A stretch of 64,000 nucleotides of DNA from Terriglobia bacterium (GCA_963803655.1 CAWDNR010000006.1:10222-74221); one strand, 5' to 3'; shown: positions 2,353-58,460, counted from the stretch's first letter. Translations and numbers: made by a program. Notes: a model not told the origin generated them from the letters alone.

Positions 2353-2779
2353 TGCTGGTTGGCGAAGATCGCGATTTCAACCCGATTGTGACTATAAACG
2401 CCCCTTAACATCAACAATGCATCCGGTTCTGTTTGGATGCCCGCCCGGCATCAACCGATCGGTCAAGGATAAACGACATGTTTCCCAGTCGACCCGTTCT
2501 TCGTATATGTGGCGTATTTACTGTGCGCGATCATTGGGCTAGTGGTAGGTCTGGTTTCGGGCGTTGTTCTTCGCTGATCTTGAAGCGTCCCCTCCGAAGG
2601 ACTGCTATCGCTATGGATGCGCTTATCGGTGCAACCGGGTCCGTCATTACTGCGAATGGGCGATGGCGTCTGGGATTTCAGCGTCCCTTTATTGCGGCAA
2701 TCATTTCTGCGGTCATTCTTTCCGGATTACACCAATTCGTTCGCTCTAAACACCTCACCGGGTAGTTAGAGTAATCGAA

Positions 2780-3520
2780 TTACAACAGTAGCCCCGTTAA
2801 CGTGGGCGGGGTGGAGTTGTCGATACTCTTGATGTCGCGGGTTGCACCGAGTGCTGGTCGCATACGCCGTAGTTGCAAGAAAGAATAGAGGGTTCCGATT
2901 GCCAACGAAAGAACCGCCGCGACCTGTAGTTTTCCGTCCCAGTGAATTGTCACGAGCCAAACGAAGTCACGCCAGGGTAGATGCCAAGACAAGAGCGCAA
3001 AATAGGGCCATGACAGGCTGGCACCAAGTAAGGCTGCGACGTACCCGTATCGTGGCCTGATTAGTACGGCGAGGAAAGCCACGACCAAAACAAGGGAACC
3101 AAGCAGTGAGGCATTGAGAAGCCCACGCCACCATCCAGAATATGAACGACCCGCCGCCTCGGACATATACATCAGATCATCCACCGTCAGAGCGGTTGTG
3201 AATGCCGCAAACAGATAGATGCCTCCTGCACAAAGGCGTTGGTTGACTGTCCCAGCCAGGCGGTGTTGAGCGGCGTGGAGAAGCGTCCCGCACAAGAAGG
3301 CGCTGGCCACAACCGCAAAGATTGAAGCCGCGAGGAAATCGCGGTTCGCGAGCGCGTTACGCGCCGCGTTGCCCGAAATGAGGAATGCAACACCATTGAA
3401 GAGTACAGACCACACGATGGGCTGGAGACTGGTCCAGTTCACGCCTCGATTGTAGCGCCGCCTAGAAGCCCACCCTGTTACTTGCGTTGTACACCGTTCG
3501 GAGCGTGCCATGGCTGGCAT
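2780..3520 (-). CDS. hypothetical polytopic membrane protein
   Basis: 246-aa ORF with about 6 hydrophobic helices. No family recognised. Confidence 0.5.
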   Translation of the reverse strand: MPAMARSERCTTQVTGWASRRRYNRGVNWTSLQPIVWSVLFNGVAFLISGNAARNALANRDFLAASIFAVVASAFLCGTLLHAAQHRLAGTVNQRLCAGGIYLFAAFTTALTVDDLMYMSEAAGRSYSGWWRGLLNASLLGSLVLVVAFLAVLIRPRYGYVAALLGASLSWPYFALLSWHLPWRDFVWLVTIHWDGKLQVAAVLSLAIGTLYSFLQLRRMRPALGATRDIKSIDNSTPPTLTGLLL

Positions 3521-3632
3521 AACATCGCCATAACGCTTACTGACCCTTGAACGGGGTTTTGAGCGCTATCGCCTTACGCCAACTAGCGGAAACTGCTGTA
3601 ACTTCTGCCTGTGATGAATATGAGGAGGGGTT

Positions 3633-4034
3633 ATGTCGAGCATCCACAACATTGCGTTCCTCATCGGGCGGGTCATCGCTGGCAGCTTTTTTCTCATGAA
3701 CGGCTTCAACCACTTCGCGCAACTCAATATGATGACCGGATATGCCAAGAGCAAAGGCATACCCGCTCCCGCGCTCGCAGTGGGCGGTTCGGGCGTACTT
3801 CTTTTCTTAGGTGGACTGAGTCTGCTCCTTGGCTATCACCCGACTATCGGAGCGGCCCTGTTGGTGATTTTTCTTCTGGGTGCCTCGTTCGGCATCCATA
3901 ATTTTTGGACGGTTCAAGACCAACAAGCAAAGCAGGGGGAGATGGTCAACTTCCTAAAAAACATGGCCATACTCGGTCTGCTGCTAATGACCTTGGCAAT
4001 CCCGCGGCCGTGGCTGATGAGTCTCGGCCGTTGA
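3633..4034 (+). CDS. DoxX family membrane protein
   Basis: 133 aa. LIGRVIAGSFFLMNGFNHF...GGSGVLLFLGGLSLLLGYHPTIGAALLVIFLLGASFGIHNFW is typical DoxX. Confidence 0.7.
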   Translation: MSSIHNIAFLIGRVIAGSFFLMNGFNHFAQLNMMTGYAKSKGIPAPALAVGGSGVLLFLGGLSLLLGYHPTIGAALLVIFLLGASFGIHNFWTVQDQQAKQGEMVNFLKNMAILGLLLMTLAIPRPWLMSLGR

Positions 4035-5685: not shown

Positions 5686-6654
5686 GTGCGCCGGGATAAA
5701 CCGGCATGAAGCAGAGGATGAAAGTTCCTTACGAGAAAGGAGTAGGGAGCAGTCGACAAGGCTGGGAATCTTGCGAGGTGAAAGTCCTCGCGCCGCCAAT
5801 TGCCTGTAGTCGGGCGGCTAGCAAATCCGATGCGTGCGAAGGTAACGACGCACGTTCTGCTCGGACGTAAACGCCTCAGCTGCCCTGCAGGGAAACTTGC
5901 AGCGGTAGGAACGATCTGGGAGGCAAGCAAACTTGGAGGCCTGAACATAACGGAATAGCTGCAGCCTCGAAAATCTCGTCCGTGGAAAATCGTGTTCGCG
6001 GGATGAAGCGGGAAGCCGACCCGAGCTACTCCAGGGGAAGGCCGATGACGCCGAGGAAGAACCAGGCAAGTGCACTCGGTGGGACCGCCGTGGTAGGGGC
6101 TCAGGCATCTGAGGAAGGATTCGCAGAATAACGTCGAGAAGGTCCCGTTGGCAACAGGGGCTGATGGCAACCTGCAGAGACTCCTCTAACGAGGCTACGA
6201 CCGAAGGTGAGGAGAGGTGACGGGATCGGCGCATGAGTCCGTAGGAGCGATGAATGAGGGGTAACGCCCTCAGAAGAGACGGTACACGTCTCTGCGATGG
6301 AGGTAACGCCGACATTGCGCAAAGGGACTCTGGGTCTTGGTGGTTTCGTCGTTCAGCGGGGTGGTCGGACACAGAGCCGACAATGAACCTCACGTGGGAG
6401 ATGGAACTAGGCCTTGAGCAAACCACGGAAGCTGGGGTGGATTGCGAATCAGCGCTTAAACCTCACCAAACTGGGAAGGCTCGAGGAAGACAGACCAAGA
6501 CTCCGAACCGGACCTTGGGAAATCCGGCTGTCCGGGATTATAGGGGGGCCTCCGGAAACGTAGCAACGGTGGAATTGTGAACCCAACTCGCAATCGAAAG
6601 AGCGGGCTTGGTAACCCTCCACCTACAGCTGGCGCGCTGGAGTTCTATCCCAAC
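5686..6654 (+). mobile_element. ORF-less group II intron-like ribozyme, copy B-prime (969 nt)
   Basis: Starts GUGCG and ends AC. Colinear similarity by eye to 8101..8984. Shared motif CGTAGGAGCGATGAA at 6240..6254. Domain V-like hairpin 6505..6539. Long domain VI helix (6543..6555 with 6637..6651) with bulged A6647 seven nt from the 3' end. No ORF. Confidence 0.6.
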
Positions 6655-6867
6655 CGATCCGCTCGGCCTCGAGTCTTGCGCGGTTACCGCGAGGGACACA
6701 GCGAAGCGTAGATAGAGGATAGGTGGGGTGGGTATTCAGCTCCGAAAAGATGCCATCCGGACGCCGACGCCCTTGTAATGCGCGGAAGGCAACATGAACA
6801 GGCGCGATAGCGCGAGCTCCTGTTCAGTCCGGCGTAGTCGAAGACCCCAGACACGCCGAGAAACTTC

Positions 6868-8050
6868 ATGCACGAGAACCGGGAGACCTCGGAGACACCG
6901 GCGGCTCAACCAGGCCGCAGGTCGGCGGGCGAAGGCCAGTGCCACAAGGCCCGCGCGTACGTCTGCGAGGAGTCACACAGCGGCATAGTGCCTATGAACC
7001 ATTCGAACCAAGATGGAACATCGCCGGCGGAGAGTGGGGAGGGAAGGCCGCTGATCAAGGAGAACGCTGGTCAACCTAACACGTACTCGACACAGAGCGG
7101 GAAGGGCGTGTCACAAGGGCTGGCGGGCGTGCGGAAAGCAGCAGGGGAAAATAAGGAGATGAAGTTCACCGCCTTGCTCCACCATCTGACCGTCGATCTG
7201 CTGCGGGAAAGCTTTTACTCCCTGAAGAGGAAGGCCGCACCCGGAGTGGACGGTGTCACCTGGCAGGAGTATGAAGACGGGCTAGAGGATCGATTGACCG
7301 ATCTTCATGGCCGAGTTCATCGCGGAGCCTATCGAGCGACGCCATCGAGAAGAGTGTACATAGAGAAAGCAGACGGACGGCAACGTCCACTAGCGGTCCC
7401 GGCTATCGAAGACAAACTTGTCCAACAGGCCGTGGTTACCATCCTCAACCAGATCTACGAGGAAGACTTTCTCGGCTTTTCCTATGGATTTCGCCCGGGG
7501 CGCAGCCAGCATCAAGCGCTGGACGCGTTGTCGTACGCGCTCCTGAAGAAGAAGGTGAACTACGTTCTGGACGCCGACATCCGAGGATTTTTCGATAACC
7601 TCGACAAGAGTTGGCTGGTCCAGTTCGTGGAGCATCGCGTCGCGGACCCCCGCATCCTACGGCTGATCCAGAAATGGCTCAACGCTGGGGTGATGGAGGA
7701 AGGCGAATGGTCGAATACGAAGACAGGTAGTCCGCAAGGTTCGGTGATTTCACCGCTTCTCGCGAATATCTACTTGCACTACGCTTTCGATCTCTGGGTG
7801 AACGTGTGGCGCAAGAAATGGGCACACGGCGAGGTGGCTGTCATCCGCTATGCGGATGATGTCATCTTGGGATTTCAGCACCAGACGGACGCAGATCGTT
7901 TCTTGGAGAACTTACGGGAGCGGCTGGGGATGTTTGGACTGGAACTGCACCCAGATAAGACGCGCCGGATCGAGTTCGGTAGATTTGCGGAACAGAACCG
8001 GAAACGCAGAGGAGAAGGGAAACCCGACACGTTCGATTTCCTCGGCTTCA
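6868..8050 (+). CDS. group II intron reverse transcriptase/maturase RT-A, 5' segment (interrupted by intron C)
   Basis: ALLHHLTVDLLRESFYSLKRKAAPGVDGVTW, RPLAVPAIEDKLVQQA, FSYGFRPGRSQHQALD, SPLLANIYLH and YADDVILGF RT motifs. RT-like sequence ends at FDFLGF (8050). Frame closed upstream by TAG at 6835..6837. An alternative start is at 6994. Confidence 0.75.
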
Positions 8051-8100
8051 GTGTGCTGCAGGAGCACACGGATAAGGAGTTCATCATGAACTAATCAACC

Positions 8101-8984
8101 GTGTGAATAAGCTGCGCGATAGATGAGGGTAGGCCCCTGGAGCAGCCGACAAGACCGCAAATCTGGAAAGGTGAAAGTCCTTTCTCCGTCAATTGCCTGT
8201 ATCAGACGGATAGTATATCCGGTGCGTGCAGAGGCAACGAAGCACGTTCTGCCCGGAAGTAAAAGTCTCGGCCGCCCTGCGAAATTTGCAGCGGTGGGAG
8301 CGATCTGGGAGACAAGCAAACTCGGAGGCTTGAACGTAAGAACTGTCCGATGACAACCACGAAACCTCACCGCGGAAAAATCGTGTTCGCGGATGAAACG
8401 GGAAGCCGACCTGAGAGGGGTCTAGGGAAGGCCGATGACACCGAGGAAGAAACAGGCAAGTGCACTCGGTGGGACCGTCGGGGTTGAGGGCCAGGCATCT
8501 GAGGAAAGAATTGCGGAGATAACGTCGGGAAGAACCGTTTCCCAGCAGGGGGCTCGCAGCAACCTGCAAGGACCGCCGGAATAAGTGTGGATACATGAAT
8601 CCGGAGGAGGGAGCTGGTTTGGCGCATGAGCTCGTATGAGCGATGAAGAGGGGGTAACGCCCTTCGAGGTGGTGTTGAACGCCACCCTGGCACGAGTAAT
8701 GCTAGTGCCAGGCAAAGGAGCTCTGGGCACTTGGCAGTCCTAGCATGGTCAACGACGTAAGTCGGAGGAGCCATGATTTAAAGACGAGTCGAGAGGTAAA
8801 CCGGACTGGGTTGGGGCGTATGCGAGCGAGCGCTTGAGTTTCACCCGTCTCGGAAAGGTCTCTCGGGGAAAGGCCAAGGTCAAAACCGGAATCGGGAAAT
8901 CCGACCTTCCGGGATTGCAGGGGGGCCCGAGGAAACGTGACTTTGTCTTATGACAAGGTGCGCGCGCCTCGGCTCTATCCCGAC
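8101..8984 (+). mobile_element. ORF-less group II intron-like ribozyme, copy B (884 nt), nested 50 nt into intron C
   Basis: 5' GUGUG, 3' AC. GGUUGA (8482..8487) is the exact complement of the preceding flank UCAACC (8095..8100). Domain V-like hairpin 8882..8916. Domain VI helix (8920..8932 with 8967..8980) has bulged A8977. No ORF. Confidence 0.65.
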
Positions 8985-9425
8985 CGGGATCGGTTTTCAG
9001 GAGCAGATCTCAAACCACTCCAAGCTGCTGTGGTAAAAGGCCGTGGTGGTGAGCGTTGGAGAAAAAGCGCGAGAACAAACTCGTGCAGGTGAGCATCCGA
9101 GAGACGAACGAAAGTGAACCCTTTCGAAGACGCGTCGTTAAGAAATCAAGGGTCGTCGAAACCAGGAGCGTGAAGCCCACCTGGGACAAGTCCGCGGGGT
9201 GCCTGATGACTGTGCGGACGGCGACCGGCGTAGAGGGGGCGTGAAGCGGATGCAGGCTGTTGCGCGGAACTGCAGGAACCAGTCGCTCTGATGTCAAGGG
9301 AGAAGCACAAGCGGCGAAAACCGCGAGGCGAGCGTACCAATGCGGAGCACTGGGGCGGACCGATTCGTAGGAGCGATGAAGGCTCGTAATGGAGCTGGAG
9401 CAAAGGGATCGGGTCAGGTGGTCGC

Positions 9426-10712
9426 ATGACCGAAGCAACTGGTAACAGGAGGACCTCGATGCGTGCGACAGACAAGCCGTTCAACATCGACAAGAAACGA
9501 GTGTACGAAGCGTACAAAGCGGTCAAATCCAATGGCGGAGCGGCCGGCGTGGACGGTCAGACGATCGAGCAGTGCGAAGCCGACTTGAAGAGCAATCTCT
9601 ACAAGATCTGGAACAGAATGAGCTCGGGAACCTACTTTCCTCCGCCGGTGCGAGCCGTTTCCATTCCTAAAAAGACTGGAGGTCAGCGGATTTTGGGTGT
9701 GCCCACGGTAGCGGATCGCGTGGCACAGATGGTGGTCAAGCAAGTCATTGAGCCGAATCTAGACTCCGTATTTCTGACAGATTCCTATGGCTACAGACCG
9801 AGAAAATCGGCACTCGACGCCGTGGGTGTCACGCGAGAGCGGTGTTGGAAGTACGATTGGGTACTAGAGTTTGACATCAAGGGCCGGTTCGACAACATCG
9901 ACCACGAACTTCTGCTACGGGCCATTCGGAGACATGGGACGTGCAAATGGGCGCTGCTGTACATCGAAAGATGGCTGAAAGCACCGACGGTGCAGGAAGA
10001 TGGAACCAGAATTGAGCGAAACCGTGGTACGCCCCAAGGGGGTGTGGTTAGCCCAATTTTGTCGAACACTTTCCTCCACTATGCGTTCGATCTCTGGATG
10101 GCACGGACTCACCCAGATCTCCCGTGGTGTCGGTATGCCGACGATGGGTGGGTTCACTGCCGGAGCGAGCAAGAAGCACAAGCTCTCAAGGCCGAACTTC
10201 AAGCCCGCTTCGCGGAGTGCCGTCTGGAGCTGCATCCGACAAAAACCAAGATCGTTTACTGCAAAGACGGGAAGCGGAAAGGCAAGTACCCGAACGTCAA
10301 ATTTGACTTTCTCGGGTATTGCTTCCGACCCCGTCTGGTTAGACGTTTCCGGGATAATACGCTGTTCTGCGGATTCAATCCCGCGGTCAGCACCACGGCG
10401 ATGAAAGCCATGCGGTCGGCGATACGGGAACTGAATCTTCGCCATCAAACTCAGTTGTCTTTGGACGACATTGCCCGGCAGCTCAACCCACTCCTTCGGG
10501 GTTGGATCGAGTACTACGGGCGATACGCCCCATCGGCACTGTACCCCTTGCTACGGTACGTCAATCAGACGTTATTGGCCTGGGTGATGCGAAAGTTCAA
10601 ACGCTTTAGAGGCCACACGATCCGAGCGGGCCATTTTCTCCAACGGCTTGCCGCGGAGCGAGCGGCTCTCTTCGTTCACTGGAATCTCGGTATGACCGGC
10701 ACGTTTGCCTGA
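9426..10712 (+). CDS. group II intron reverse transcriptase/maturase (RT-C), apparently intact, no endonuclease domain
   Basis: 428 aa. GGAAGVDGQTIEQ, NLYKIWNRMSSGTYFPPPVRAVSIPKKTGGQRILGVPTVADRVAQ, YGYRPRKSALDA, QGGVVSPILSN, YADDGWV, FDFLGY and maturase-like LLRGWIEYYG. Confidence 0.85.
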   Translation: MTEATGNRRTSMRATDKPFNIDKKRVYEAYKAVKSNGGAAGVDGQTIEQCEADLKSNLYKIWNRMSSGTYFPPPVRAVSIPKKTGGQRILGVPTVADRVAQMVVKQVIEPNLDSVFLTDSYGYRPRKSALDAVGVTRERCWKYDWVLEFDIKGRFDNIDHELLLRAIRRHGTCKWALLYIERWLKAPTVQEDGTRIERNRGTPQGGVVSPILSNTFLHYAFDLWMARTHPDLPWCRYADDGWVHCRSEQEAQALKAELQARFAECRLELHPTKTKIVYCKDGKRKGKYPNVKFDFLGYCFRPRLVRRFRDNTLFCGFNPAVSTTAMKAMRSAIRELNLRHQTQLSLDDIARQLNPLLRGWIEYYGRYAPSALYPLLRYVNQTLLAWVMRKFKRFRGHTIRAGHFLQRLAAERAALFVHWNLGMTGTFA

Positions 10713-10715
10713 TGG

Positions 10716-10789
10716 GAGCCGGATGAGCCGAGAGGTTCACGTCCGGTTCTGCGAGAGCCTCGGGGTGAAACTCCCCGGGGCTACTCAAC
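10716..10789 (+). ncRNA. domains V and VI of intron C
   Basis: 10716..10749 GAGCCGGAUGAGCCGAGAGGUUCACGUCCGGUUC: AGC triad, GAGA tetraloop, AC bulge. Domain VI is GAGAGCCUCGGGG...CCCCGGGGCU-A-CUC with bulged A10783 followed by CUCAAC. Confidence 0.75.
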
Positions 10790-11169
10790 CGCACATCAGC
10801 GGGAAGAACAGGTTAGGGCGGTTCGCAGTGAGGCGCAAGACGATCCGCAAACGCATGGGGGCGAAGCTGCGGGAGATTAAGCAGCAGCTCCGTGAGCGAA
10901 TGCATGATCCCGTGCGCCAAACCGGACAATGGCTCAAATCGGTCGTGCAAGGCCACTTCAACTACTATGCGGTGCCGGGGAACCTCGACAGTCTCGGCAT
11001 ATTCCGGGAGCGGCTAATCGGGCAGTGGTGGCGGACACTTCGCCGCCGCAGCCAGAAACGCCCGCTCTCCTGGGAGCGTACTCTTGCCTTGGCTAACCGA
11101 TGGCTCCCTCAACCGCGCGTGCTCCATCCATATCCTGCCGTTCGCTTTGCCGCCAGTCATCCGAGATAA
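10790..11169 (+). CDS. group II intron RT/maturase RT-A, 3' segment (thumb/maturase part)
   Basis: HISGKNRLGRFAVRRKTIRKRMGAKLREIK...GHFNYYAVPGN...VLHPYPAVRFAASHPR. Joins the codon begun at 8050 (a + cg = ACG Thr). Confidence 0.75.
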
Positions 11170-11243
11170 GAACCGGATGCGCTAATCAGCGCCCGTCCGG
11201 GTCCGCGCGGGGGGCAGTCAGCGATGACTGTCCCTACCGCGAT
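11170..11243 (+). ncRNA. domains V and VI at the 3' end of the RT-A intron
   Basis: 11170..11203 GAACCGGAUGCGCUAAUCAGCGCCCGUCCGGGUC (34 nt, two-nt CC bulge). Domain VI is GGGGCAGUCA-GCGA-UGACUGUCCC with bulged A11236 followed by CCGCGAU. Confidence 0.6.
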
Positions 11244-11418
11244 CTCATCACCGAGTTCGCCCGGAACCCCAACGAACTCCGCACATTCCGAAACAATGAA
11301 GTTAAGCATCTAGAGCAGGCCGGGCATGCCCCGGCTCCCCAACCGAGGCGCTAAGGCGTCCGCGGTGGTACGGCCTAAGCAGGCTGGATGCGGCGATAAG
11401 TCGCAAAAGGAATTCCAA

Positions 11419-11694
11419 ATGTCAGACGAGCGTGAGCTTAAACGTGTACCTCGCTGCCTACTACCAGTGAACAACCTCAACCTTGAACCCGAGTACTTCG
11501 GCGAACGGCTAGGCCGCGGCTACGTCCGTGTGCCCTACAAGGCGTGCGGAGTCGAATATGACCGACGCGAGATTGAGGAGTACTCTCATCCGTTCGCGCA
11601 CCACGTTTCCAACTTTATGTGTCCCAAGGGGCACCTTGGCGAAACGCGGCGGCTCTGGGAGCCGGTCAAGGCTGCCGAGAAAGTGGATCTGTAA
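11419..11694 (+). CDS. hypothetical small protein
   Basis: Internal ATG of the 11326..11694 ORF (MSDERELKRVPRC...). No family recognised. Confidence 0.35.
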   Translation: MSDERELKRVPRCLLPVNNLNLEPEYFGERLGRGYVRVPYKACGVEYDRREIEEYSHPFAHHVSNFMCPKGHLGETRRLWEPVKAAEKVDL

Positions 11695-14087: not shown

Positions 14088-14164
14088 CGGGGAGTGGCTC
14101 AGCCTGGTAGAGCACCTGGTTCGGGACCAGGGGGTCGGAGGTTCGAATCCTCTCTCCCCGACCA
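14088..14164 (+). tRNA. tRNA-Pro (anticodon CGG), CCA encoded
   Basis: Hand-folded cloverleaf: acceptor CGGGGAG/CTCCCCG, D arm GCTC..GAGC, anticodon stem CCTGG/CCAGG with loop TTCGGGA, T arm GGAGG-TTCGAAT-CCTCT, discriminator A plus CCA. Confidence 0.9.
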
Positions 14165-58200: not shown

Positions 58201-58359
58201 TCTCACTCATCGGTTCGCTGGGCGCATCTATAATGTGAATGTGAATTGAGTTTCCGACCGCCTCAGCCTTCGGGCATACCCTGGCTGTGGCGGCGAGGGC
58301 TGGTTTCTCTTTGCGTCCCTTGCGCCAAGGATTCCGCAAGGTTCGCAAAAAAAAACCAA

Positions 58360-58460
58360 CCCTGAGGGTACAGATGGAAATGCCTGTGCCTCCCGGCTTC
58401 GCGAGAAGCCATTGGAAAGGAAACAGCCGCCGGGATTTTCCCGCCCGCCTGTCCCTTTCT
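58360..58460 (+). promoter_or_regulatory. candidate molybdenum cofactor (Moco) riboswitch
   Basis: About 100 nt upstream of moaA. GCCUCCCGGC..., AUUGGAAAGG and GCCGCCGGG resemble the conserved Moco-motif blocks as I recall them. An outer helix GGGUACAG / CUGUCCC closes the element. Confidence 0.45.

What the first reader, a model, noticed from the sequence alone, without database searches (positions are those of the whole stretch)
5686..11243. Three-level nest of group II introns: an RT-encoding intron inside the RT gene of another intron, itself interrupted by an ORF-less intron
The RT-A ORF stops looking like an RT right after FDFLGF at 8050. The missing thumb/maturase part (HISGKNRLGRFAVRRKTIRKRMGAKL...HPYPAVRFAASHPR) resumes at 10790. 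The joint is exact: ttc a | insert | cg cac gives FDFLGF-T-HISGK in frame. The 2739-nt insert begins GUGUG and ends AC. It encodes its own intact 428-aa RT/maturase, has a textbook domain V (10716..10749) and a domain VI with bulged A10783 seven nt from its end. It also carries UGAAGC (9171..9176), complementary to the 5' flank GCUUCA. That insert is in turn interrupted 50 nt from its own 5' end by an 884-nt ORF-less ribozyme (8101..8984). Restoring RT-A mRNA would therefore need splicing of C, and correct folding of C would need prior removal of B. Intron-in-intron homing is known (for example Methanosarcina introns homing into intron ORFs, and cyanobacterial or Euglena twintrons). A three-deep stack mixing two RT lineages plus an ORF-less rider is unusual and gives a natural test of ordered splicing.
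Basis: partly seen in the sequence, partly recalled or inferred. Interest (0 to 1): 0.8.

Follow-up and report, generated by a model that had tools for sequence, protein, structure and literature searches.

The report
Four nested group II introns
One self-splicing mobile intron carries a second inside its reverse-transcriptase gene, and each of the two also carries a gene-less "rider" intron from a widespread, apparently undescribed family that often lives inside other introns.

Summary

- **Intron A (5686-11243)** has its RT gene split exactly at FDFLGF|T|HISGK.
- **Intron C (8051-10789)** causes that split. It is complete and encodes its own RT.
- **Rider B is 8139-8984 (846 nt), not 8101-8984.** Ten intact C-type copies read 8138|8985 contiguously. 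The GUGUG at 8101 belongs to C.
- **Rider B2 (5746-6654, 909 nt) was missed.** It is 76% identical to B and sits 60 nt into A. Intact A-type copies read 5745|6655 contiguously.

All begin GGAGCAG rather than GUGYG, and Rfam's D5/D6 model does not detect them.

Across 53 independent insertions, a 7-nt loop pairs with the 5' flank in 87-94% of cases. One further base pairs with the first 3' flank base in 91%. Insertion is therefore by group II-type reverse splicing.

By my count about half of the insertions lie inside other group II introns. Splicing order and activity are inferred, not shown.

The parts
5686..11243 (+). Intron A, whole (outer RT-encoding group II intron). A-proper is 5686-5745 + 6655-8050 + 10790-11243, about 1910 nt.
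   Evidence: Intact copies L004, L005 and L006 align to exactly these three segments. The 5' end is GUGCG. The 3' end ...CCCUACCGCGAU is shared by six copies with unrelated 3' flanks. D1D4-6 scores 130.7 bits at 6639-6847.
5746..6654 (+). Rider B2: ORF-less group II-like element (909 nt) inserted 60 nt into A's domain 1.
   Evidence: It is 76% identical to B. It is absent from the intact A copies, which read GGAGUAG|CGAAC. It gives a full-length match to the family profile at E 1.5e-236.
5739..5745 (+). IBS1 (intron-binding site 1) for B2: GGAGUAG.
   Evidence: It pairs 7/7 with B2's EBS1 (exon-binding site 1), CUACUCC at 6026-6032.
6026..6032 (+). EBS1 loop of B2 (CUACUCC). EBS3 is G6096, pairing with C6655.
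   Evidence: Alignment columns 330-336 and 405.
6505..6650 (+). B2 domain 5 (6505-6539) and domain 6 (6543-6650, bulged A6647).
   Evidence: Covariation count on 38 family members.
6868..8050 (+). RT-A ORF, 5' part. The RT domain starts at about 7160 (MKFTALLHH). It ends ...FDFLGF plus the first base of the Thr codon.
8051..10789 (+). Intron C, whole (RT-encoding group II intron in the RT-A ORF). C-proper is 8051-8138 + 8985-10789, 1893 nt.
   Evidence: Ten intact copies, L127-L136. D1D4-2 scores 92.4 bits and RF00029 58.1 bits.
8045..8050 (+). IBS1 for C: GCUUCA, within the FLGF codons of RT-A.
   Evidence: It is complementary to 9171-9176. It co-varies in L130-L134 (GUUUCU/AGAAAC) and L055 (AGCUCA/UGAGUU).
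8139..8984 (+). Rider B: ORF-less group II-like element (846 nt) inserted 88 nt into C's domain 1. Approximate domains: D1 8146-8531, D2 8532-8620, D3 8625-8725, D4 8727-8880, D5 8883-8916, D6 8920-8980, bulged A8977.
   Evidence: D1D4-4 scores 42 bits, below the gathering score of 49.
8132..8138 (+). IBS1 for B: GGCCCCU.
   Evidence: It pairs 7/7 (one G-U) with B's EBS1, AGGGGUC at 8416-8422.
8416..8422 (+). EBS1 loop of B (AGGGGUC). EBS3 is G8486, pairing with C8985.
9171..9176 (+). EBS1 of C (UGAAGC), in a hairpin loop.
9426..10712 (+). RT-C ORF. It is intact, and the start is probably the ATG at 9459 (417 aa).
   Evidence: TIGR04416 at 411 bits; Pfam RVT_1 plus GIIM. Homologs are 83-96% identical.
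10714..10789 (+). C domain 5 and domain 6, branch A10783.
   Evidence: RF00029 at 58.1 bits.
10790..11169 (+). RT-A ORF, 3' part (thumb/maturase; (T)HISGKN...ASHPR*).
11170..11243 (+). A domain 5 (11170-11203; GAACCGG..., with A.G where the usual G.U of the catalytic triad sits) and domain 6 (bulged A11236).
   Evidence: Conserved in six copies, with compensatory changes in D6. RF00029 does not detect it even at E<=10.

Best explanation
**Architecture.** The locus is a four-intron nest built by successive site-specific retrohoming events.
- Intron A is an endonuclease-less RT-encoding group II intron. It sits in intergenic DNA.
- Intron C belongs to a second RT lineage whose usual homing site is the DNA that encodes the conserved (D)FLG(F/Y) motif of other introns' RTs. 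It inserted into RT-A at that point.
- Two copies of an ORF-less rider then inserted, one into domain 1 of A (B2) and one into domain 1 of C (B). Each did so where its own 7-nt EBS1 loop plus 1-nt EBS3 base-pairs with the host sequence.

**What the riders are.** They are non-autonomous group II-type ribozymes. They have six domains, a D5 with a 2-nt bulge, and a D6 with a bulged A. Their 5' end is GGAGC rather than GUGYG, and they encode no protein.

**Likely mode of operation (inferred, not shown).**
1. The riders rely on an RT made by a host intron, for cDNA synthesis and perhaps for splicing.
2. Living inside an RT-encoding intron gives them co-transcription with an RT mRNA, a site that is neutral for the cell, and a free ride whenever the host intron moves.
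3. Expression would unpack from the inside out. RT-C can be translated from the primary transcript because its ORF is intact.
4. B must leave C's D1 before C can fold and splice. Splicing of C rejoins the RT-A frame.
5. B2 must leave A's D1 before A can splice.
For: **Architecture**
- Presence/absence comparisons with intact A-type copies (L004-L006) and ten intact C-type copies (L127-L136) fix all four pairs of boundaries to the base. There is no target-site duplication.
- The RT-A joint is supported by a single TIGR04416 match and by invariant homolog sequence.
- C-type copies lie after ...GAC UUU CUN GGN UUC N| in at least four different RT genes. EBS1 co-varies with that flank.

**Rider family**
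- I found 68 full-length copies, all starting GGAGCAG (variants GUAGCGG, UGAGCAG, GAUGCGG) and all ending CUAUCCCGAC or CUACCCGAC.
- EBS1 pairs with flank positions -1 to -7 in 87-94% of 53 non-redundant insertions. The highest value in any shuffle was 0.68. At position -8 pairing falls to 32%.
- EBS3 pairs with +1 in 91% of insertions, against a shuffled mean of 41%.
- In D5/D6, 95.6% of cells are paired, 11 pairs change on both sides, and 0 of 500 shuffles reach the observed values. Slid controls give 28-57%.
- RNAalifold predicts a six-domain fold with a closed D1.

**Intron hosts**
- Riders are found split across host D5 loops (for example GAGCCGUGUGCGGGAG|B|AACCGCAUGCACGG), in D6, and in D1 of A-type, C-type and Firmicute D1D4-6-type introns. 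In every such case they lie in sense orientation.

**Signs of function**
- Both RT ORFs are free of stops. The restored RT-A is 96% identical to intact homologs and RT-C is 96% identical to its closest homolog.
- The same B-in-C composite occurs in two other Terriglobales MAGs. There B is 89-90% identical, and in L055 the C-type RT is full length.
Against: - There are no expression or splicing data, so splicing of any of the four elements, and its order, is inference.
- The riders lack the near-universal GUGYG 5' end, and their D5 has AAC plus an extra A where AGC normally sits. Catalytic competence is therefore unproven.
- However, the evidently mobile A-type introns share the AAC D5.
- The count of intron-hosted insertions (28 of 53) rests partly on my reading of flanks.
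- Dependence on a host RT is inferred from the absence of an ORF. No RT-binding site was identified in the riders' D4.
Confidence: 0.82

Rival explanations
1. There are three introns only, and the ORF-less rider is 8101-8984, a canonical GUGUG-initiated intron inserted 50 nt into C.
For: GUGUG occurs at 8101, and the 3' end at 8984 is correct.
Against: - Ten intact C-type copies contain 8101-8138 and join 8138 directly to 8985.
- The D1D4-2 consensus needs 8125-8138 next to 8985 onward.
- All 68 full-length family members start at GGAGCAG.
- This version also overlooks B2 at 5746-6654.
Confidence: 0.02
2. Fossil nest. The architecture is as described, but the rider insertions have inactivated C and A. 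Nothing here splices or moves any more.
For: - No expression data are available.
- The riders have a non-canonical 5' end and D5.
- Inserts of 846-909 nt in D1 would be expected to disturb folding.
- No copy of A carrying both inserts was found elsewhere.
Against: - Neither RT ORF has a stop or frameshift. The split RT-A is 96% identical to intact homologs.
- B and B2 keep the family's conserved columns, and their EBS1 and EBS3 match their sites perfectly.
- The B-in-C composite persists at 89-90% identity in other genomes, with a full-length RT in L055.
Confidence: 0.2
3. The riders are 5'-truncated dead copies of a longer intron, produced by incomplete reverse transcription. They are not a complete mobile unit.
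For: They lack GUGYG, and 5' truncation is a known outcome of retrohoming (established knowledge of the pathway).
Against: - All 68 copies, from many phyla, start at the same base.
- Tandem copies abut as ...CCCGAC|GGAGCAG (L123, L106).
- Only about 7 nt precede the 5' strands of the D1 basal helices, and those strands pair with 3' partners about 360 nt downstream. D1 is therefore complete.
- The first seven bases are conserved.
- No longer relative with an upstream GUGYG turned up among 120 loci.
Confidence: 0.04
4. B and B2 are lineage-specific structural expansions of host-intron domains. They are not independent mobile elements.
For: Many copies sit inside introns, always in sense orientation.
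Against: - Close relatives of both hosts show presence/absence polymorphism.
- The same element occurs in D1, D5 and D6 of unrelated intron classes and also in non-intron DNA.
- EBS1/EBS3 co-vary with the flanks.
Confidence: 0.01

Closest known systems
Nested group II introns of Methanosarcina acetivorans (Dai & Zimmerly 2003, as summarised in review PMC4424553)
   Same: RT-encoding and ORF-less group II introns home site-specifically into other group II introns, including intron ORFs. This produces multi-level nests (up to five) in DNA with no host gene at stake.
   Different: - The present case is bacterial (Acidobacteriota-like by its homologs).
- The ORF-less riders are not derivatives of the co-resident RT introns.
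- The riders have a non-GUGYG 5' end and a D5 that RF00029 does not detect.
- They target D1, D5 and D6 RNA-coding parts of hosts rather than ORFs.
- The rider family spans many phyla.
Bacterial twintrons and ORF-less introns mobilised in trans (Thermosynechococcus elongatus, PMC2882425; Trichodesmium twintron with sequential splicing, PMC4649490)
   Same: An intron sits within an intron, and the inner one must splice first. ORF-less introns are thought to depend on RTs of related introns in the same genome.
   Different: - Those ORF-less introns are close relatives of the RT-encoding ones and have canonical ends.
- Here the riders form a separate sequence family with retargeted EBS1 loops and many unrelated hosts.
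- I did not read these two papers in detail. The comparison rests on their abstracts and on the review.
HYER ribozymes (ORF-less class IIC introns; Liu et al., Science 2024, as described in PMC11754743)
   Same: They are protein-less group II-type RNAs that exist in multiple copies per genome. Target recognition is short: about 7 bp for HYER, and 7+1 bp here.
   Different: - HYERs are described as class IIC and 0.4-0.6 kb; the riders are 0.83-0.99 kb.
- The riders' targets show no stem-loop preference.
- Rider D5/D6 is not recognised by RF00029, and the riders keep a bulged A in D6.
- No HYER sequence was available, so homology was not tested.
Circularly permuted (CP) group II RNAs (Roth et al. 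2021, PMC8637638)
   Same: They are protein-less group II-like RNAs of about 900 nt that standard surveys overlooked.
   Different: CP RNAs have the domain order D5-D6-D1-D4 and keep GUGYG. The riders have the canonical D1-to-D6 order and lack GUGYG.

Membership tests
Group II intron, RT-encoding (intron A) | 5' GUGYG and 3' AY termini at the insertion boundaries | tested here: met
   GUGCG at 5686 and ...CGAU at 11243. Both boundaries are fixed by copies with unrelated flanks.
Group II intron, RT-encoding (intron A) | RT/maturase ORF in domain 4 | tested here: met
   After in-silico removal of C, TIGR04416 scores 348 bits (cut-off 300) in one stretch, and the YADD motif is present.
Group II intron, RT-encoding (intron A) | Domain 5/6 recognisable by the Rfam model RF00029 | tested here: not met
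   No RF00029 hit at E<=10 on 11100-11260. A 34-nt D5-shaped hairpin with a 2-nt bulge, and a D6 with a bulged A, are present and conserved with compensatory changes. The triad reads AAC with an A.G pair.
Group II intron, RT-encoding (intron A) | D1-D4 ribozyme sequence of a known lineage | tested here: met
   RF02005 D1D4-6 at 130.7 bits (gathering score 49).
Group II intron, RT-encoding (intron C) | Termini, D1, D5/D6 with branch A, RT/maturase ORF, EBS1-IBS1 | tested here: met
   - Termini GUGUG...AC.
- RF01999 at 92.4 bits and RF00029 at 58.1 bits.
- TIGR04416 at 411 bits; RVT_1 plus GIIM.
- EBS1-IBS1 is 6/6, with covariation in other copies.
Group II intron (riders B, B2) | Six-domain architecture with a D5 hairpin (2-nt bulge) and a D6 with a bulged A near the 3' end | tested here: met
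   RNAalifold model. Covariation count: 95.6% paired, 11 pairs changed on both sides, 0 of 500 shuffles reach the observed values.
Group II intron (riders B, B2) | Target recognition by EBS1-IBS1 and EBS3-IBS3 pairing at the exact insertion junctions, with no target-site duplication | tested here: met
   Seven positions at 87-94% paired, and +1 at 91%, across 53 insertions. Empty sites confirm precise junctions.
Group II intron (riders B, B2) | 5' terminal GUGYG | tested here: not met
   All 68 full-length copies start GGAGC or close variants (GUAGC, UGAGC, GAUGC).
Group II intron (riders B, B2) | Match to curated Rfam group II models at the gathering score | tested here: not met
   - B and B2 score 42 bits against D1D4-4 (gathering score 49).
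- RF00029 gives no hit at E<=10.
- One relative (L125) just reaches 50.1 bits.
Group II intron (riders B, B2) | Self-splicing or lariat formation | not testable with these tools
   Needs RNA-seq, RT-PCR or in vitro splicing.
Twintron / nested intron | One intron inserted within the sequence of another, shown by an intact 'empty' outer intron | tested here: met
   Empty A (L004-L006) and empty C (L127-L136).
HYER (ORF-less class IIC ribozymes) | Class IIC ribozyme structure, about 0.4-0.6 kb, hydrolytic DNA cleavage | not tested
   No HYER sequence or model was on hand. Size (0.83-0.99 kb), the lack of stem-loop targeting and the atypical D5 argue against membership.
Circularly permuted group II RNA | Domain order D5-D6-D1-D2-D3-D4 | tested here: not met
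   D5/D6 lie at the 3' end of every copy.

The most novel reading that the evidence does not exclude
The riders represent a widespread and so far undescribed class of non-autonomous group II ribozymes. They have a GGAGC 5' end and an atypical D5 that standard D5/D6 surveys cannot see.

They have specialised as parasites of other group II introns. They retarget a 7+1-nt guide to sites in host D1, D5 or D6, then use the host's RT and hitch-hike on its mobility. This would be a bacterial analogue of SINE/LINE dependence. It would also be a natural example of introns that have handed their protein functions to trans-acting factors.
Probability: 0.4. Interest if true: 0.8.

Novelty: new variant of a known kind. 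Interest (0 to 1): 0.65.

Why it matters
- **ORF-less introns in bacteria.** They have been regarded as rare. [quoted passage not shown] The riders fit that exception.
- **The 5' end.** If the riders splice, they show that GUGYG is dispensable.
- **A natural retargeting series.** They provide 53 or more different 7+1-nt guides.
- **Dependence on trans-acting proteins.** The family is a tractable model for how introns come to depend on proteins supplied in trans, a step invoked for the origin of spliceosomal introns.
- **Ordered splicing.** This locus offers a built-in test, with four junctions that are each diagnostic.

Tried and rejected
1. **My first hypothesis on A's 5' end.** I supposed 5686-6653 was a complete rider starting GUGCG, with A's true 5' end upstream of 5686. 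Intact A copies retain 5686-5745, so this was rejected.
2. **IIC-style targeting after a stem-loop.** The 30 nt upstream of 53 targets fold no better than shuffles (mean -3.88 against -3.89 kcal/mol, p=0.47).
3. **Insertion into exposed loops of folded host RNA.** This is unlikely as stated, because IBS1 often includes helix strands, such as the D5 upper stem.
4. **Circularly permuted group II RNA.** The domain order is canonical.
5. **HYER identity.** This could not be tested. A literature search for HYER1/HYER2 gave nothing usable.
6. **Plasmid BLAST with B.** It gave only three weak, unannotated hits, which nevertheless opened the trail.
7. **Promoter scan upstream of A.** It found nothing on the + strand above chance.
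8. **Simon et al. 2008** (PMC2525955, ORF-less introns) is not held in the library.
9. **Class assignment.** I did not assign A and C to Zimmerly classes, because no reference set was available.


Full report
**1. Checking the observation**

Rfam at gathering thresholds finds three group II pieces in the region:
- D1D4-6 at 6639-6847 (130.7 bits);
- D1D4-2 at 8971-9090 (92.4 bits);
- the D5/D6 model RF00029 at 10714-10789 (58.1 bits).

tblastn places RT-A residues 1-298 at 7159-8052 and residues 299-423 at 10792-11166. The complete RT-C lies at 9426-10709. The two RTs are 32-36% identical.

Removing 8051-10789 gives an open 520-aa frame reading FDFLGF-T-HISGK. The evidence for this joint is as follows.
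- The restored protein matches TIGR04416 in a single stretch at 348 bits (cut-off 300).
- More than 100 uninterrupted homologs at 84-96% identity were listed; the seven aligned all read F(D/G)FLG(F/L)THISGKN across the joint.

The proposed EBS1 (exon-binding site 1) of C, UGAAGC at 9171-9176, lies in a hairpin loop. It co-varies with the 5' flank in other C-type copies. Examples are AGAAAC with GUUUCU in L130-L134, and UGAGUU with AGCUCA in L055.

**2.

A self-comparison showed that 5746-6270 and 6433-6561 are 71-76% identical to 8139-8663 and 8812-8938. The "5' part of intron A" therefore contains a second copy of the ORF-less element.

Intact A-type introns were fetched through RT-A homologs (L004, L005, L006). 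They align to the window as 5686-5745 + 6655-8050 + 10790-11243. At the junction they read GGAGUAG|CGAAC. The window reads GGAGUAG|GGAGCAGUCG...CUAUCCCAAC|CGAUCC. This gives two results:
- A's 5' end at 5686 is right;
- A carries a 909-nt insert, B2 = 5746-6654.

Ten intact C-type introns (L127-L136) all join window 8138 directly to 8985. The D1D4-2 consensus GggGGuaGGcCCccCGgagccGg is also reconstituted only by joining 8125-8138 to 8985 onward. Hence B = 8139-8984 (846 nt). The GUGUG at 8101 is part of C's domain 1.

A's 3' end (...GUCCCUACCGCGAU|) is shared by six copies with unrelated 3' flanks. These copies show compensatory changes in D6.

There are no target-site duplications at any junction.

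**3. The rider family**

B gave weak hits to unannotated DNA in Mycobacterium, Niallia and Bacillus plasmids.

I then scanned one genome per GTDB species with the riders' D5 motif. The loci came from:
- Acidobacteriota, Bacillota, Actinomycetota, Desulfobacterota and Planctomycetota;
- Gammaproteobacteria, Chlamydiae and Omnitrophota;
- two archaeal MAGs.

A profile built from four copies found 68 full-length members. All start at GGAGCAGCCGACAAGGCUG, with variants GUAGCGG, UGAGCAG and GAUGCGG. All end at UUCUAUCCCGAC or UUCUACCCGAC. Their flanks are unrelated. Tandem copies abut as ...CCCGAC|GGAGCAG.

Several genomes hold many copies:

| Genome | Copies |
|---|---|
| Neobacillus pocheonensis | at least 8 |
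| Gracilibacillus massiliensis | at least 5 |
| One Solirubrobacteraceae MAG | at least 8 |

No ORF is conserved. The low-GC Niallia copy lies in 3.2 kb without any ORF of 100 aa or more.

**4. Evidence that the riders are group II-type retroelements**

I analysed 53 non-redundant insertions.
- A 7-nt hairpin loop (alignment columns 330-336) pairs with flank positions -1 to -7 in 87-94% of cases. All six pair types occur at six of the seven positions (five at -2).
- Shuffled flanks give means of 0.39-0.50 and never exceed 0.68. At position -8, pairing falls to 32%.
- One further column pairs with the first 3' flank base in 91% of cases, against a shuffled mean of 41%.

This is an EBS1-IBS1 plus EBS3-IBS3 recognition system. 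The window's pairings are:

| Rider | EBS1 | IBS1 (intron-binding site 1) | EBS3 pair |
|---|---|---|---|
| B | AGGGGUC (8416-8422) | GGCCCCU (8132-8138) | G8486 with C8985 |
| B2 | CUACUCC (6026-6032) | GGAGUAG (5739-5745) | G6096 with C6655 |

The 3' region forms a 34-35-nt D5-shaped hairpin with a 2-nt bulge, followed by a D6 with a bulged A 7-8 nt from the end. On 38 distinct sequences:
- 95.6% of cells are paired;
- 11 pairs change on both sides;
- 0 of 500 shuffles reach the observed values;
- slid controls give 28-57% paired.

The invariant part of D5 was my search motif, so only its free positions and D6 count as evidence.

RNAalifold gives a six-domain layout. D1 is closed by helices whose 5' strands begin about 7 nt from the 5' end, so nothing is missing upstream. 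D3 carries the familiar ...CGUAGGAGCGAUGAAG...GGGUAACGCCC...GGCAAAGG motif. That identification rests on my recollection of other introns.

**5. What is atypical about the riders**

- The 5' end is GGAGC, not GUGYG.
- D5 reads GAACCGG...CCGGGAU, that is AAC plus an extra A opposite it, in place of AGC.
- RF00029 does not hit the riders even at E<=10 on the isolated element. The only Rfam signal is D1D4-4 at 42 bits, below the gathering score of 49.
- Intron A's own D5/D6 is also missed by RF00029 and also has AAC. Yet A-type introns are clearly successful, with many near-identical copies. This D5 variant is therefore compatible with activity.

Published surveys that find ORF-less introns through RF00029 (for example PMC8919778) would probably miss the riders (that survey used a laxer >24-bit cut-off).

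**6. Where the riders live**

I classified the 53 non-redundant sites by reading flanks, by Rfam hits next to them and by neighbouring RT genes. By this count, 28 sites lie inside other group II introns, always in sense orientation. The host contexts are:
- split across the D5 loop (L001, L084, L113, L029, L053, L079, L105, L018);
- just after D5 (L028), in D6 (L088), or after the RT stop codon (L021);
- in D1 of A-type introns, at nt 60 (window, L114, L042, L044, L073, L108) or at nt 29 (L126);
- in D1 of C-type introns (window, L083, L055, L106, L022, L035);
- at one site in D1 of Firmicute D1D4-6-type introns (L002, L012, L075 and others).

The remaining sites are in non-intron DNA.

I had suspected stem-loop targeting as in class IIC introns. 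The data do not support it.

L126 and B2 are 82% identical. Their EBS1 loops differ at one position (CUACUUC against CUACUCC), matching one changed base in their target sites within A-type D1 (GAAGUAG against GGAGUAG). This shows retargeting by point mutation.

**7. Intron C as a specialist of RT genes**

C-type copies follow ...GAC UUU CUN GGN UUC N|, the codons for (D)FLG(F/Y), in at least four different RT genes:
- A-type RT in the window, L127 and L129;
- other RT lineages in L130-L134, in L135 and in L136.

Other copies (L055, L083) sit elsewhere, with matching EBS1 in L055. This is the pattern described for Methanosarcina introns that home into intron ORFs (review PMC4424553).

**8. Mechanism**

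*Shown:* the architecture, the base-pairing rules, the intact ORFs, and the recurrence of the same composites in other genomes. B is 89-90% identical in L083 and L055 at the same C-type site. L055 has a full-length RT that is 81% identical to RT-C.

*Inferred:*
- The riders depend on a host-intron RT in trans.
- Residence inside an RT-encoding intron gives them co-transcription with the RT message, a site that is neutral for the cell, and hitch-hiking.
- Expression unpacks inside-out. RT-C is translated first. B then leaves C, C splices and restores RT-A, and B2 leaves A before A splices.

The main alternative is that this copy is a fossil. I give that about 0.2.

**9. Comparison with known systems, and verdict**

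Nested group II introns, twintrons that need ordered splicing, and ORF-less introns served in trans are all known (PMC4424553, PMC2882425, PMC4649490). The nest as such is therefore a new member of a known kind.

The rider family is the more novel part. I found no description of it in the literature I could search. It differs from HYERs, which are class IIC and 0.4-0.6 kb. It also differs from circularly permuted group II RNAs. I could not compare sequences with HYERs or with the Zimmerly database.

I therefore rate the whole finding as a new variant of a known kind, with interest 0.65.

Noticed in passing
window 11301-11420: A sub-threshold SAM-I/IV riboswitch match (38.4 bits; gathering score 41.1) begins 58 nt after intron A's 3' end. 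A small ORF follows it, starting at about 11420. Intron A may sit in the leader or promoter region of a riboswitch-controlled gene.
   Followed up: no
window 58240-58438: Molybdenum cofactor (Moco) riboswitch, 49.7 bits (gathering score 36).
   Followed up: no
window 14088-14164: tRNA-Pro (CGG), found by both Rfam and ARAGORN.
   Followed up: partly
window 11170-11203; L004, L005, L006, L127; L135 854-948: In A-type introns the D5 catalytic triad reads AAC, with an A.G pair where G.U is usual. A more distant relative (L135) has G.A at the same pair. RF00029 misses these D5/D6 entirely.
   Followed up: partly
L123 1296-2943; L106 3624-4691; L021/L120: Head-to-tail tandem rider copies abut as ...CCCGAC|GGAGCAG. 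In L123 the 5' junction re-creates the target (IBS1 plus G at +1), which could allow a second insertion at the same site. L106 does not fit this simple rule.
   Followed up: partly
L062 (Ca. Sifarchaeum, Asgard MAG) 3434-3639; L098 (Bathyarchaeota MAG) 2358-3191: Rider-family matches occur in two archaeal MAG contigs. The L098 match is nearly full length. Contamination or mis-binning was not excluded.
   Followed up: no
L127-L136: C-type introns repeatedly occupy the (D)FLG(F/Y) codons of several different RT genes. L135 and L136 are further twintrons of this kind, without the rider.
   Followed up: partly
L002 3607-6865 (Niallia sp. Man26 plasmid): A 3.2-kb stretch has no ORF of 100 aa or more. 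It holds a rider inside a D1D4-6-type intron remnant, followed by what looks like a decayed IS110-family transposase gene.
   Followed up: no
P0001: One RT-A homolog carries an internal duplication of about 80 residues covering RT motifs. It is probably an assembly or gene-call artefact, or a rearranged copy.
   Followed up: no
L010, L048, L063, L109 (Gracilibacillus massiliensis): Four or more riders sit at different loci with near-identical short flanks (aaccgcttcggcttgccca|...|cttcgctttccgggg). This suggests that they target a repeated genomic element.
   Followed up: no
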